Shown one piece after another: positions 20,533-23,500 of a stretch of DNA of 64,000 nucleotides (the stretch's first letter is position 1; each line of letters starts with the position of its first letter). Source of the DNA: Escherichia coli (GTDB taxonomy: Bacteria; Pseudomonadota; Gammaproteobacteria; Enterobacterales; Enterobacteriaceae). The position numbers are program-made. Location: the NCBI RefSeq assembly GCF_965641715.1, contig NZ_OZ282453.1; one strand, 5' to 3'.

Positions 20533-23500
20533 TAAGACTGACTTTATCTGATTTAAAAATGCCAGCCTCCGGGCTGGCGTTTTTTATGGTTGAGTTACCA
20601 GCGACCGGACGCGCCGCCACCGCCAGAAGAACCGCCCCCGCCGCTAAATCCGCCGCCACTTGAGCCTCCACCGGAAGAGGATGAAGAAGAACCTTTTCTT
20701 GAAGCTCTATCTTTACTGAGTTTTTTGTATTTGGCGCGTAGCTTTTTATTGACGATAAGCCAAAAAATAACCAGTGGTACGATCGCAAAAGGCGTTAACA
20801 TACCGCAGGCAACGATTAAATTGGTCCATGGTCCTGGCTCGGCAACATAGAGGAATACCATCCCGTAAATGGCGCCAGTGAGAGTGATCCAGGGTAAATT
20901 CGACGGATCGGTAAAAACAATAAAATATGAAAGTACCGCCAGCAATATAATTACAGCAAGCGATAATGGAATAGGGGGATTGATACTGTAATAATCCCCC
21001 CTGTCTTCCGGTAATTCACCATTCAACAGAAGCGCGCCGATATTTTCGCTTGCCAGTGTTAATCCACCCATCAGGTCGTCACTTTTGAAGGCAGGGATCA
21101 ATATATCCCTGATAATCTTCGCCGCTTGCAGGTCGGTTACCACCCCTTCCAGCCCGTAGCCAACCTCAATACGAACAGCATGATCCTCCCTGGCAACCAG
21201 AAGTAAAATACCATCGTTTCTCTGCTTATCTCCCAGTTTCCAGCTATCAAAAACCCTTGTAGCATATTGTTCAATGGAATCGTCTCCGGTGGACGGCACT
21301 ACTAATACAGCGACCTGCGCCCGTGTTTTATGTGTAATATCCTGCAGTTGCTGTGTCAGTGATTGTTGTTCAGACGTGCTTAACGTACCAGTAATATCGG
21401 TCACCTGTTGGCGCAGCTCCGGCACAGCAATTTGCTGGGCAAGCCCGGGAAGGCTCCACAAAGCAAGTAGAATAAAGATTAAGCGCATTACGATCACCAA
21501 CGGCCGGATGAACCGCCGCCTCCTGAAGAACCGCCACCACCGCGGAAAGAATTCCTCGACGAAGAGCGAGAATGAGCATTACGATTCCCCGTTTTCCTGT
21601 TGCTTTTTTCTCCTGACCCCAGCTTAAGATTGCCAGTAAATTTGGCCACAATGATCAGCAGAACGATGCCAGCAATGGTTATTGGGCCGATAAAATGATC
21701 AATTAACCCAATAATTGTTGAGATGAATGCAATATCTTTATTACTGGCGAACACCAGGCACCATCCCACAATAATTATCAGCATCACGACAAACAATGAA
21801 TTTCGTCCTGATTCACGAACCTGCGGAGTCTTCTTTTGTTTTTTCACTTTAGCGTTTTTATTTTTTGGGGCCAGCATCATAGGAAATACGCGGCACAAAT
21901 TAAAAACTACCGCGAGACGCTGCTTGCAGGTTGTTGCTAACAATAAACTAAAACAAACGACCGATACCCGCCGAATGATGACATCGTCCTGAAAGGAGAA
22001 AAACCAGACCATAGGGGTAATCATCGATATCATCCATATGCCACGCCGTGGGCGGCTGGCAAATCGCCAGAGGACAACGATGGCAACGATCATCAGCAGT
22101 GTCCAGGCAAGACATGGCAGCGAACGTTGCGGATTAGCAAACAGATGATTGGCTAAAGCATCCAAAGGGCTAAGGTTCGCTTTGATATGGGTAAACTGTG
22201 CGATGCTTTCAATTCCGCCCGTTAATCCAGCAAAGAGATTGTTTTTTTCGAATTCTGGCTGCATATGGTAACGAACAATTTGCGCAGCTTGTTCCGGCGG
22301 CAACATCTCTTCCAGTCCATGTCCAATCTTCATTGACGCCAGCCCTTCCGGCCATACGACGAGAATTAAGATACCTTCGCCATATCGCTTCTCTCCAACG
22401 GGTTTCCAGTGATATACCCCGTATCTCTGCGAGGCTGCAAGTTTAATGTTTTTGCCCCCTGTGGTCGGCGTAACCAACACGGCCACCTGGAAGTGGTTTT
22501 GCTGCTCGAGAGTCTGTAATTGTTGAGTTAAAGCAGTTTGTTCTTCTGTCGTTAATGTCCCGGTTAAGTCAGTCACTGAAGGCAATCGTTCAGCGAATAC
22601 CTGAAAACCGCATAGCATCAGAAGTAAGAGAAAAATACGCATATCAATTCCTTTTGTTACCAGCGCCCGGAAGCGCCACCGCCACCAGATGAACCGCCAC
22701 CACCGCTGAAATTGTCATTGTTGAATGAAGAGGATGACGATGATGAATAGTGGGAGGAAGAATTGCTTCTTGTATGGCGTGATGGCTGGTTGACATCACG
22801 CATCAAATCCCGAACTTTTTTGCCGAAGGGGGTAAAAGCGATGGCGACAGCCAGGAACGGTGTGGCGAAGCAGAGTAATGTTGCGAGTACTCCCCAGCTT
22901 CCGCTGAAGCCTGCTATAGGTAAAACAAAGGCCAGTACAATAGCTGCGAAGCAAATTACTCCCAGCGTTTTGATATATCCTCTGGCAGAAATAAACGTCA
23001 GTACTATCGCCCAGACTAACAATGCCCACCAACCGCTAAAGGGCAAAGGGTGATCGGTCGGTGTTATCGTTGCTAAATTATTCCCCGTAAGACGACTTTC
23101 AATATCGCTGATCCCCTTTTGTAAACCGCCAGCCAGGTCGCCTTTTTTAAATGCAGGAATAATACTGTTGCGAATAATTTTCCCGGACTGTGCATCCGTA
23201 ATAATACCTTCCAGCCCGTAACCGATTTCAATACGCACGGTATGATCCTGCCAGGCGACTAACAGTAGAACGCCATCATCACGGTCTTTATCACCCGGTT
23301 TCCAGCTATCGAATACCCGCGTTGCGTACTGCTCGATGGTTTCATCGCCTGTTGTATCAACCACTAACACGACCAACTGTGCGTGGTTTTTTTGCGTCAG
23401 GGCTTTAATCTGGTTGGTCAGGGTGTTTACTTCGCTGTTTGTTAATGTGCCGGTTAAGTCATTCACATACTTGGGGGATTCAGGTACTGGAATTTGTGTG

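What the first reader, a model, noticed from the sequence alone, without database searches (positions are those of the whole stretch)
20595..20700. Conserved Gly/Ser-rich C-terminal tails ending in SGRW on all three TPM paralogs
The three paralogs end in ...SGGGSSGGGFSGGGGSSGGGGASGRW, ...FRGGGGSSGGGGSSGRW and ...NFSGGGGSSGGGGASGRW (also at 21494-21570 and 22657-22720). The 3' ends are near-identical at the nucleotide level (ttaccagcg.ccgga.g.gccgccaccgcc...). An invariant terminal SGRW after a flexible Gly/Ser linker suggests a shared C-terminal recognition or sorting signal. The repeated 3' ends are also substrates for recombination that could collapse three genes into one.
Basis: seen in the sequence. 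Interest (0 to 1): 0.55.

Follow-up and report, generated by a model that had tools for sequence, protein, structure and literature searches.

The report
Conserved C-terminal tail of YgcG-type proteins
The three E. coli genes do end in the same glycine-rich tail, but it is the near-universal 17-residue C-terminal signature of a widespread family of bacterial membrane proteins (YgcG/TPM type), probably sits in the cytoplasm, and has no known function.

Summary
Observation confirmed. All three TPM paralogs (minus strand, between eno and queE) end in F[SR]GGGGSSGGGG[AS]SGRW.

It is not an E. coli peculiarity, and "SGRW" is not the invariant part. Of the 150 best hits among 22,830 relatives, 128 end in W. 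The consensus is [FWY]SGGGGx[SF]GGGGASGxW-COOH, with no indels relative to the terminus. The penultimate residue varies; the glycine blocks are the most conserved part. A metagenome scan for DNA encoding the tail alone found it almost only on TPM-domain ORFs (76 of 82; 4 others cut by contig ends).

The usual operon is lipoprotein LemA, then TPM-TM-tail, then a small cytosolic TPM. E. coli lacks the third gene.

A signal peptide, an odd number of membrane segments and K/R-rich flanks place the tail in the cytoplasm. That argues against a sorting signal.

Conservation is at the protein level. Synonymous divergence in the tail matches the rest of the genes.

The recombination idea is partly right. 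The boundary between the K-12 single-gene allele and this allele lies inside the tail-coding DNA, but ygcG is not a collapse of the three genes.

Best reading: a tethered cytoplasmic docking motif, partner unknown. AlphaFold docks it on the TPM domain, which conflicts with the topology and is unexplained.

The parts
20598..20648 (-). Conserved 17-residue C-terminal motif of the third TPM paralog (FSGGGGSSGGGGASGRW); stop codon at 20595-20597
   Evidence: The motif matches the family consensus position by position.
20649..20744 (-). Variable, basic then Ser/Gly-rich linker of the third paralog (NKKLRAKYKKLSKDRASRKGSSSSSSGGGSSGGG). The boundary with the K-12 ygcG allele lies at about 20676.
   Evidence: AlphaFold pLDDT is below 50 for residues 257-289. 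O157 carries one extra GGGS unit here. The break in allele identity is shown.
20595..21497 (-). Third TPM paralog. It has a signal peptide, a TPM domain (residues 33-156), three hydrophobic helices (179-196, 199-219, 224-255), a linker and the tail.
   Evidence: The start is set by analogy with the RefSeq O157 annotation. A GTGA overlap joins it to the stop of the middle paralog.
21497..21547 (-). Conserved 17-residue motif of the middle paralog (FRGGGGSSGGGGSSGRW); stop codon at 21494-21496
21494..22642 (-). Middle TPM paralog, 382 aa. It is the most divergent (34% identity to the third paralog) and has about five hydrophobic segments and a long basic loop.
   Evidence: Orthologs show decay of the tail: TGG to TAG in E. 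albertii and G to V at position -3 in O157.
22660..22710 (-). Conserved 17-residue motif of the first paralog (FSGGGGSSGGGGASGRW); stop codon at 22657-22659
22657..23550 (-). First TPM paralog. It has a signal peptide, a TPM domain, three hydrophobic segments with a basic loop 1 (RGYIKT) and a basic C-flank, then the linker and the tail.
   Evidence: The start follows the RefSeq annotation of the O157 ortholog.
23564..24184 (-). lemA, the first gene of the operon. It is a LemA-family protein with a lipoprotein signal peptide (lipobox LSGC), so it faces the periplasm.
   Evidence: MamQ/LemA similarity, E 1e-24. The lipobox is conserved in the printed homologs that include the N-terminus (44 of 47 rows; the other 3 are N-terminally truncated ORFs).
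20561..20578 (-). Terminator-like hairpin followed by a T run, directly after the third paralog. It lies in the convergent eno/TPM intergenic region.

Best explanation
The tails are the family-wide C-terminal signature of YgcG-type (COG1512-like) membrane TPM proteins.

Each protein has a signal peptide, then a periplasmic TPM domain, then an odd number of membrane segments (3, 5 and 3 here). A cytoplasmic, disordered linker follows, basic at first and then Gly/Ser-rich, with a median length of about 30 residues. The protein ends in a fixed 17-residue motif, [FWY]SGGGGx[SF]GGGGASGxW-COOH.

Shown: the motif is position-specific and nearly universal in the family, it is essentially restricted to TPM proteins, and it is kept by purifying selection on the protein rather than by gene conversion.

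Inferred: it lies in the cytoplasm, and it is the only conserved cytoplasmic element of the membrane protein. It most likely works as a tethered short linear docking motif, a conserved tip with a terminal aromatic residue on a flexible leash. It would mediate a protein-protein contact at the inner face of the membrane, either with a partner or with other copies of itself.

In the canonical three-gene operon (lipoprotein LemA, TPM-TM-tail, small cytosolic TPM), operon logic makes the co-encoded cytosolic TPM the obvious candidate partner. E. coli lacks that gene, so its partner is unknown. The motif is not an export or sorting signal.
For: Family-wide motif:
- phmmer of the third paralog against 1.84 billion representatives gave 22,830 hits.
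- 128 of the best 150 (clustered at 50% identity) end in W. The last four residues are SGSW in 43, SGRW in 34 and SGGW in 15. Most of those without the tail look like fragments or frameshifted calls.
- Per-position information is 3.6-4.3 bits at the Gly, Ala, Ser and Trp positions of the last 17 residues. It falls to simple G/S composition further upstream, with no indels relative to the terminus.
- K-12 YgcG and the crystallised protein BA41 carry the same tail.

Restriction to TPM proteins:
- 87 of 87 tail-bearing ORFs in the 87 loci analysed (the 80 genome loci plus E. coli reference and other loci) have a TPM domain; none of about 5,500 other ORFs has the tail.
- A DNA pattern encoding only the tail was scanned against metagenomes. 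76 of 82 ORFs found carry a TPM domain, and 4 of the other 6 are cut by contig ends.

Operon:
- LemA followed by TPM-tail was seen in 53 genome loci.
- A cytosolic TPM of about 165 aa, without signal peptide or membrane segment, starts 0-8 nt after the tail gene in most of 60 matched pairs, and is present in 63 of 81 loci.
- The full three-gene order was seen in 41 of 80 loci chosen only by the tail DNA pattern.

Protein-level selection:
- Codon identity at identical amino acids is 0.36-0.50 in the tail and 0.30-0.38 elsewhere.

Topology:
- Signal peptides are present.
- The hydrophobic region spans 60-89 aa in 135 of 156 proteins. Three segments is the most common count (109 of 156), and there are a few single-segment forms.
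- Over 290 linkers, K+R total 870 against D+E 315, and 219 linkers are net positive.
- AlphaFold gives three helices followed by a linker with pLDDT below 50.
- From my own recollection of the abstract (the paper was not held): BA41 is described as having an extracytoplasmic TPM domain and a cytoplasmic low-complexity C-terminus (Cerutti et al. 2017, J Struct Biol).
Against: - No partner has been identified.
- E. coli keeps the tail perfectly in four genes (three here plus K-12 ygcG) although it has no cytosolic TPM gene in the operon.
- In an AlphaFold model of the small cytosolic TPM fused to the last 45 residues of its upstream neighbour (46 paired sequences), the tail stayed disordered, with pLDDT 37-50.
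- AlphaFold places the tail of the full-length E. coli protein on its own periplasmic TPM domain with pLDDT 81-97. If real, this contradicts the cytoplasmic location.
- The topology rests on hydropathy heuristics and the positive-inside rule, not on experiment.
- The best-150 list is biased towards proteins with the tail, because the tail adds to the alignment score.
Confidence: 0.5

Rival explanations
1. The tail is a ligand for the TPM fold. Its last residues would add a beta-strand to the edge of a TPM domain and bury the terminal Trp. This could happen in cis, which requires the tail to be periplasmic. It could also happen in trans, on the co-encoded small cytosolic TPM, coupling the periplasmic and cytoplasmic halves of the system.
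For: - In the AlphaFold model of the full-length third paralog, residues 291-300 have mean pLDDT 81 and W301 has 97.
- Residues 295-300 are assigned as a strand. The only other strands in the model are in the TPM domain (33-35, 62-68, 97-103, 108-113).
- In its own model, the small cytosolic TPM docks its own conserved C-terminus (NELPDxPVxL) as a strand (E164-166, pLDDT 83-86). A C-terminal strand completing the sheet may therefore be a general feature of this fold.
- The cytosolic TPM is co-encoded in 63 of 81 genome loci and in 41 of 80 loci chosen only by the tail DNA pattern.
Against: - Docking in cis is topologically impossible if the tail is cytoplasmic. The count of membrane segments is odd, BA41 has a single segment, and the flanks are basic.
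- The direct test of docking in trans was negative: the tail was disordered in the chimera.
- E. coli and other stand-alone genes keep the tail without a small TPM.
- Mutual information between variable tail positions and small-TPM columns is no higher than with the protein's own TPM domain.
- I could not inspect model coordinates.
Confidence: 0.15
2. The tail drives self-association of the membrane proteins. In this view the aromatic residues are separated by Gly/Ser loops (F...F/S...W), and such 'glycine loops', or kinked low-complexity segments, stick to each other and cluster the proteins on the cytoplasmic face.
For: - Aromatic residues are regularly spaced at positions -17, -10 and -1, between invariant GGGG blocks.
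- The upstream linkers are also rich in G, S, F and W.
- This would explain why the tail is retained in genomes that lack any operon-encoded cytoplasmic partner, such as E. coli.
- The resemblance to glycine-loop and low-complexity aromatic segments comes from general knowledge and was not tested here.
Against: - Generic sticky low-complexity regions do not usually show exact length and register to the C-terminus, an invariant Ala-Ser-Gly, or a strictly terminal Trp.
- In the E. coli versions position -10 is Ser, not Phe.
Confidence: 0.12
3. The tail controls proteolysis. It could be a handle that a membrane protease such as FtsH uses to start degradation. Alternatively it could be a glycine-rich 'slippery' end that protects the protein from processive unfoldases.
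For: The only support is circumstantial: a long disordered cytoplasmic C-terminal tail on a membrane protein. That FtsH needs a free cytoplasmic tail of about 20 residues or more, and that glycine-rich tracts weaken the grip of AAA+ unfoldases, are from general knowledge and were not tested here.
Against: - Neither role requires a 17-residue motif conserved position by position with a terminal Trp.
- The tail has no similarity to known C-terminal degrons such as LAA.
Confidence: 0.08
4. The tail would be a C-terminal sorting or secretion signal recognised by an export or anchoring machine.
For: - The motif sits at the extreme C-terminus and ends in an invariant residue.
- In general, C-terminal aromatic residues can be read by periplasmic PDZ proteins.
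Against: - No hydrophobic segment or basic cluster follows the motif, unlike LPXTG, PEP-CTERM or GlyGly-CTERM signals.
- No NCBIfam sorting-domain model matches at E up to 0.01.
- The proteins already have signal peptides and membrane anchors.
- The predicted location is cytoplasmic.
- No dedicated sortase-like or transporter gene is present in the conserved operon.
Confidence: 0.05
5. There is no function. The identity of the tails would be a by-product of low-complexity sequence, replication slippage or recent gene conversion between tandem paralogs.
For: - The region is GGN-rich.
- The linker just upstream varies by one GGGS unit between strains.
Against: - The same 17 residues, in the same register, occur in hundreds of proteins from different phyla that are less than 50% identical.
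- Synonymous divergence between the paralog tails is as high as elsewhere in the genes.
- Paralog tails share only 39-42 of 51 nt.
Confidence: 0.02

Closest known systems
E. coli K-12 YgcG (b2778; COG1512 'uncharacterized membrane protein YgcG, contains a TPM-fold domain')
   Same: It occupies the same chromosomal position between eno and queE. It has the same architecture (signal peptide, TPM domain, three hydrophobic segments, Ser/Gly linker) and exactly the same last 17 residues. The last ~80 nt and the downstream flank are 97% identical to the third paralog here.
   Different: It is a single gene rather than lemA plus three paralogs. Its body is only ~40-55% identical in protein. lemA is reduced to the 46-codon yqcG. 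The K-12-type body is found in 4,290 of 5,426 complete E. coli genomes, against 1,102 for the four-gene allele.
BA41 of Bizionia argentinensis (PDB 5ANP)
   Same: It is the best structural match of the TPM domain (Foldseek E 6e-11, rmsd 1.6 A). Its deposited sequence ends ...GGGFGGGGASGGW, the same motif. From my own recollection of the abstract (the paper was not held), it is described as having an extracytoplasmic TPM domain and a cytoplasmic low-complexity C-terminus (Cerutti et al. 2017).
   Different: It has one membrane segment instead of three. Only the TPM domain was solved, and nothing is known about the tail. The reported in vitro ATPase/ADPase activity concerns the TPM domain.
Psb32 / TLP18.3 (photosystem II assembly and repair factors)
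   Same: The TPM fold is shared (Foldseek hits 3PVH, 3PTJ, 8C7I), and the domain faces the lumen or periplasm with a C-terminal membrane anchor.
   Different: The match is far below the NCBIfam equivalog cut-off (32-40 bits against 160). Psb32 lacks the glycine-rich extension. The paper that notes this suggests its loss accompanied the change of function.
Tethered C-terminal tips such as the SSB C-terminal peptide (functional analogy only, from general knowledge)
   Same: Both have a folded domain, a Gly-rich disordered linker of variable length, and a short invariant tip ending in an aromatic residue with a free carboxylate that serves as a docking site.
   Different: The sequences are unrelated. 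The SSB tip is acidic (DDDIPF) and its partners are known. Here the tip is glycine-rich, membrane-tethered, and no partner is known.

Membership tests
TPM domain proteins (Pfam PF04536) | Significant match to the TPM_phosphatase profile | tested here: met
   All three paralogs match. The best i-Evalue is 4.1e-41, and the third paralog matches at residues 33-156 with 3.6e-38.
TPM domain proteins (Pfam PF04536) | Rossmann-like alpha/beta TPM fold | tested here: met
   The AlphaFold domain has pLDDT above 93. Foldseek matches 5ANP, 7TBR, 2KW7, 3PVH, 8C7I and 4OA3 with probability 1.00.
YgcG-type membrane TPM proteins (COG1512-like) | Signal peptide, N-terminal TPM domain, membrane segment(s), Gly-rich C-terminal region | tested here: met
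   K-12 YgcG has the same layout and the same tail.
YgcG-type membrane TPM proteins (COG1512-like) | Terminal motif [FWY]SGGGGx[SF]GGGGASGxW at the very C-terminus (as defined here from the family) | tested here: met
   All three paralogs fit the motif. 128 of the best 150 relatives end in W and share this consensus.
Canonical LemA / TPM-TM-tail / cytosolic TPM three-gene operon | LemA-family gene immediately upstream | tested here: met
   lemA lies at 23564-24184. The same order is seen in most related loci.
Canonical LemA / TPM-TM-tail / cytosolic TPM three-gene operon | Small TPM protein of about 165 aa, without signal peptide, immediately downstream of the tail gene | tested here: not met
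   It is absent from the window. The operon ends at a terminator next to eno. It is present in 63 of 81 genome loci and in 41 of 80 loci chosen only by the tail DNA pattern.
C-terminal sorting signals (LPXTG, PEP-CTERM, GlyGly-CTERM and the like) | Short motif followed by a hydrophobic helix and a basic cluster at the C-terminus, with a match to a curated model | tested here: not met
   The motif is itself the terminus and nothing follows the W. No NCBIfam model of this kind matches at E up to 0.01.
Psb32 equivalog (NCBIfam NF047379) | Score above the curated cut-off of 160 bits | tested here: not met
   Scores are 32.1, 34.3 and 39.9 bits, with no hit for the middle paralog.
YxzE-like putative bacteriocin (Pfam PF25184) | Match to the profile over its whole length in a small stand-alone peptide | tested here: inconclusive
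   There is a weak partial match (E 1e-4 to 2e-4) of the last membrane segment plus linker in 2 of the 3 paralogs. It may be compositional. The 'bacteriocin' label comes only from a BAGEL prediction. I could not obtain the YxzE sequence.
Known anti-phage defence systems (PADLOC) | Match to any PADLOC model (checked because the locus lies next to a CRISPR array) | tested here: not met
   No families matched any of the four proteins.

The most novel reading that the evidence does not exclude
The 17-residue tail would be the cytoplasmic output element of a widespread, uncharacterised trans-envelope module made of a periplasmic lipoprotein LemA, a TPM-3TM-tail protein and a cytosolic TPM. Its glycine-rich strand and terminal Trp would plug into the beta-1 edge of a TPM fold, as AlphaFold proposes. 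It would compete with the cytosolic TPM's own C-terminal strand (NELPDxPVxL), and so transmit the state of the periplasmic half to a cytosolic TPM protein. E. coli would carry a degenerate version that lost the cytosolic component.
Probability: 0.12. Interest if true: 0.7.

Novelty: new member of a known kind. Interest (0 to 1): 0.4.

Why it matters
The motif is one of the most sharply conserved short C-terminal sequences I have seen on a family of unknown function. It keeps the same 17 residues and the same register across Proteobacteria, Bacteroidota, Leptospira, Planctomycetota and many metagenomic lineages.

Published work mentions only a 'glycine-rich extension' or 'low-complexity region'. 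The literal motif strings gave no hit in about 8 million full texts.

Defining the motif gives a precise handle for studying the LemA/TPM operon, whose function is unknown. That handle is a peptide for pull-downs and point mutants such as W to A. Related TPM domains act as accessory or assembly factors of membrane complexes, including photosystem II and, by fold match, a subunit of the mycobacterial respiratory supercomplex.

For E. coli genomics, the tail-coding DNA marks the edge of a three-allele polymorphism between eno and queE.

Tried and rejected
1. Trans-docking on the small cytosolic TPM. I tested this with an AlphaFold model of a chimera, using a 46-row paired alignment. The tail was not docked.

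2. Covariation. I computed mutual information between variable tail positions (-2, -10, -11, -16, -17) and columns of the small TPM, and compared it with the protein's own TPM domain (64 non-redundant pairs). The values were similar, relatedness dominates, and the result is uninformative.

3. Tail-only profile search of the 5.8-billion-protein collection. A 42-aa profile gave only 10 hits, all YgcG fragments. The one that looked like a stand-alone 65-aa peptide is cut by a contig end.

4. Gene neighbourhoods from exact-protein look-ups. The contigs were mostly too short to be useful.

5. Gene conversion as the cause of tail identity. Rejected by codon analysis.

6. Collapse of the three genes into K-12 ygcG. 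Rejected, because the body of ygcG has no close DNA match to any paralog.

7. A defence-system role suggested by the neighbouring CRISPR array. No PADLOC hits.

8. Literature. Searches for YgcG, LemA with TPM, DUF477 and COG numbers, BA41 and the motif strings gave no functional study of the tail. The BA41 paper itself is not held.

9. A first crude membrane-segment count (threshold 1.7) under-called the second helix and gave a misleading mix of two and three segments. I repeated it with a lower threshold.
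Full report
**What is in the window.** The region is the E. coli pyrG-eno-queE-CRISPR neighbourhood. Between eno (plus strand, ending at 20535) and queE (plus strand, starting at 24339) lies a minus-strand operon of four genes:
- lemA at 23564-24184;
- three TPM-domain genes at 22657-23550, 21494-22642 and 20595-21497.

A terminator-like hairpin follows at 20561-20578. Pfam finds a TPM domain (PF04536) at the N-terminus of all three, with best E 4e-41. The stop of the middle gene and the start of the last gene overlap (GTGA), which fits translational coupling.

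**The observation.** The three proteins are 34-47% identical overall but end in F[SR]GGGGSSGGGG[AS]SGRW. Two details need correcting:
- The DNA of the tails is not nearly identical. Over the last 51 coding bases the paralogs share 39-42 positions.
- Codon identity at identical amino acids is 0.36-0.50 in the tail and 0.30-0.38 in the rest of the genes. There is therefore no sign of recent gene conversion, and the identity is maintained at the protein level.

**It is a family signature.**
- A search of the third paralog against 1.84 billion representative proteins gave 22,830 relatives.
- Of the best 150, which are clustered at 50% identity, 128 end in Trp. Most of those that do not end in Trp look like fragments or frameshifted calls.
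- Counted from the C-terminus, the last 17 positions read [FWY]-S-G-G-G-G-x-[SF]-G-G-G-G-A-S-G-x-W, with 3.6-4.3 bits at the Gly, Ala, Ser and Trp positions and no indels. Upstream of position -17 only G/S composition remains.
- The penultimate residue, R in E. coli, is the most variable (S 52, R 39, G 17, D 7, K 5).

K-12 YgcG ends in exactly the same 17 residues. The deposited sequence of the crystallised protein BA41 (5ANP) ends in GGGFGGGGASGGW.

**An unbiased test of exclusivity.** The best-150 list favours tail-bearing proteins, so I scanned metagenome contigs for DNA encoding only GGGGxxGGGGA[S]GxW-stop.
- Of 82 ORFs ending in the pattern, 76 contain a TPM domain.
- Four of the remaining six are cut by contig ends.
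- In the 87 loci of the genome-locus analysis (80 loci from different genomes plus E. coli reference and other loci), 87 of 87 tail-bearing ORFs are TPM proteins. None of about 5,500 other ORFs has the tail.

The motif is therefore essentially confined to this family.

**Operon context.** In the genome set the gene upstream is LemA in most loci.
- A sensitive profile then showed a third gene, a TPM protein of about 165 aa with no signal peptide or membrane segment. It has its own conserved C-terminus (NELPDxPVxL). It starts 0-8 nt after the tail gene in most of 60 matched pairs and is present in 63 of 81 loci.
- In loci picked only by the tail DNA pattern, the order LemA, TPM-tail, small TPM occurs in 41 of 80, and LemA, TPM-tail in a further 16.
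- The proteobacterial LemA proteins carry a lipobox (L[ST][GN]C followed by GYN). They are therefore periplasm-facing lipoproteins.
- E. coli is atypical. It has no small TPM, and this allele has three tail-bearing paralogs instead.

**Topology.**
- Each paralog has a typical signal peptide.
- The first and third have three hydrophobic segments. In the first, loop 1 is basic (RGYIKT). In both, the flank after the last segment is strongly basic (6 and 9 K/R in 20 residues).
- The middle paralog has about five segments.
- Across the family the hydrophobic region spans 60-89 residues in 135 of 156 proteins. Three segments is the most common count (109 of 156), and a few proteins have a single segment.
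- The linkers hold 870 K+R against 315 D+E, and 219 of 290 are net positive.
- AlphaFold predicts three helices followed by a linker with pLDDT below 50.

An odd number of segments and positive flanks put the tail in the cytoplasm, opposite the TPM domain. This agrees with the published description of BA41, which I cite from memory because the paper is not held. It is an inference, not a measurement.

**What the tail is not.**
- It is not a sorting signal of a known kind. Nothing follows the W, no NCBIfam sorting model matches, and the conserved operon has no sortase-like or transporter gene.
- It is not part of a known defence system.
- It is not Psb32 (32-40 bits against a cut-off of 160). 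A recent preprint notes that Psb32 lacks the glycine-rich extension that non-photosynthetic homologs carry.

**How it probably works.** The membrane protein's only conserved cytoplasmic feature is this tail. Its anatomy is a disordered leash of variable length (median 30 residues) ending in a fixed tip with a terminal aromatic residue. That is the anatomy of a tethered docking motif. I commit to that reading with moderate confidence.

In canonical operons the co-encoded cytosolic TPM is the logical partner. I tested this with an AlphaFold model of the small TPM fused to the last 45 residues of its upstream neighbour, using 46 truly paired sequences. The TPM fold was confident, but the tail stayed disordered (pLDDT 37-50). 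The small TPM's own C-terminus docked as a strand. Covariation was uninformative. E. coli's perfect retention of the tail without a small TPM also argues that the partner is something else, or the tail itself.

**An unexplained result.** In the model of the full-length third paralog, the last eleven or so residues are placed with pLDDT 81-97 as a strand (295-300). The only possible strand partners are in the TPM domain. That cannot happen in a membrane-inserted monomer if the topology above is right.

There are two readings. It may be an artefact, with the tail filling an exposed sheet edge that the small TPM fills with its own C-terminus. Or it may reflect a real affinity between the TPM fold and the tail that I could not model. 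I could not inspect coordinates.

**Alleles and recombination.** The locus has three alleles among 5,426 complete E. coli genomes:
- the four-gene allele, with at least 80% coverage in 1,102 genomes;
- the K-12 type, yqcG plus ygcG, whose body is found in 4,290 genomes;
- a type with lemA, the first paralog and an unrelated 120-codon ORF, whose specific segment is found in 340 genomes.

These counts overshoot the total by about 300, and I did not resolve why. E. albertii has the four-gene allele at 87% identity.

K-12 ygcG is 97% identical to this window from the end of eno through the last ~80 nt of the third paralog, then abruptly unrelated. The other boundary lies in the first ~17 codons of lemA. 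yqcG overlaps in frame with what remains of the lemA signal-peptide region. However, the body of ygcG is a divergent gene and not a fusion of the three paralogs.

**Decay of individual tails.**
- O157 has a truncated first paralog and a G-to-V change at position -3 of the middle one.
- E. albertii lost the terminal W of the middle paralog through a TGG-to-TAG change.
- O157 has one extra GGGS unit in the linker of the third paralog.

The middle paralog looks the least constrained. The 17-residue motif of the third paralog is unchanged in the three genomes compared (this window, O157 and E. albertii).

**Verdict.** It is explained by membership of a known family whose glycine-rich C-terminus has been noted before. 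What appears new is the precise motif, its near-exclusive link to TPM proteins, and the three-gene operon context. The function remains unknown. Interest is moderate.

Noticed in passing
window 24132-24184 and locus L002 2582-2722: The K-12 small gene yqcG is annotated as 'cell envelope stress response protein' (46 aa). It overlaps, in frame, the remnant of the lemA start and signal-peptide region (88% DNA identity to window 24132-24400; shared IIFIF). In K-12 the rest of lemA is gone.
   Followed up: partly
window 20595-20676 versus L002 1696-1777: The boundary between the K-12 single-gene allele and the four-gene allele falls about 80 nt upstream of the stop codon, inside the Ser/Gly linker. 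Downstream of that point the two alleles are 97% identical. Upstream they are unrelated.
   Followed up: yes
loci L008-L086 and L088-L167 (for example L037 6901-7401): A TPM protein of about 165 aa, without signal peptide or membrane segment, is encoded right after the tail gene in most operons. It has its own conserved C-terminus NELPDxPVxL. AlphaFold docks that C-terminus as a beta-strand on the domain (pLDDT 83-86).
   Followed up: partly
window 24110-24184 (start of lemA) and the LemA genes of L001-L058: The LemA homologs of these operons carry a lipoprotein signal with lipobox L[ST][GN]C followed by GYN. The LemA domain should therefore be periplasmic and lipid-anchored. This differs from the older description, recalled from Pfam, of a membrane protein with a cytoplasmic body.
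   Followed up: partly
L007 3844-4980 (E. albertii), L003 1607-2755 and 2989-3663 (O157:H7): Individual tails decay naturally. The middle paralog of E. albertii ends ...ASGR, after TGG changed to TAG. The O157 middle paralog ends SSVRW. The O157 first paralog is truncated at 224 aa, before the tail.
   Followed up: partly
model of window 20598-21500: AlphaFold places the last ~11 residues of the tail with pLDDT 81-97 as a strand against the TPM domain. The predicted topology puts tail and domain on opposite sides of the membrane.
   Followed up: partly
window 25349-26354: This is a CRISPR array of 17 repeats with a period of 61 nt. The repeat core is GAGTTCCCCGCGCCAGCGGGGATAAACCG, the E. coli type I-E repeat. 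It lies downstream of queE. Many spurious ORFs in this stretch are translations of the repeats.
   Followed up: no
hits H31-H33 (K-12-type ygcG in other strains): Some strains carry an IS1 insertion that splits ygcG into two annotated TPM fragments.
   Followed up: no
window 20598-21500, residues 238-290: There is a weak Pfam match (E about 1e-4) of the last membrane segment plus linker to PF25184, 'YxzE-like putative bacteriocin'. B. subtilis yxzE is assigned to the sigma-W envelope-stress regulon, and its bacteriocin label comes only from a BAGEL prediction. Whether YxzE carries the same terminal motif was not checked.
   Followed up: partly
Foldseek results for the third-paralog model: Besides Psb32, TLP18.3, BA41 and BA42, the TPM domain matches a subunit of the mycobacterial respiratory CIII2CIV2 supercomplex (6ADQ_J, 8OVC_V, 8HCR_J). 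This fits the idea that TPM domains are accessory factors of membrane complexes.
   Followed up: no
E. coli genome collection: Counts for the three alleles at this locus (1,102, 4,290 and 340) add up to about 300 more than the 5,426 genomes. Some genomes must therefore hold more than one of the diagnostic segments, or partial copies.
   Followed up: no
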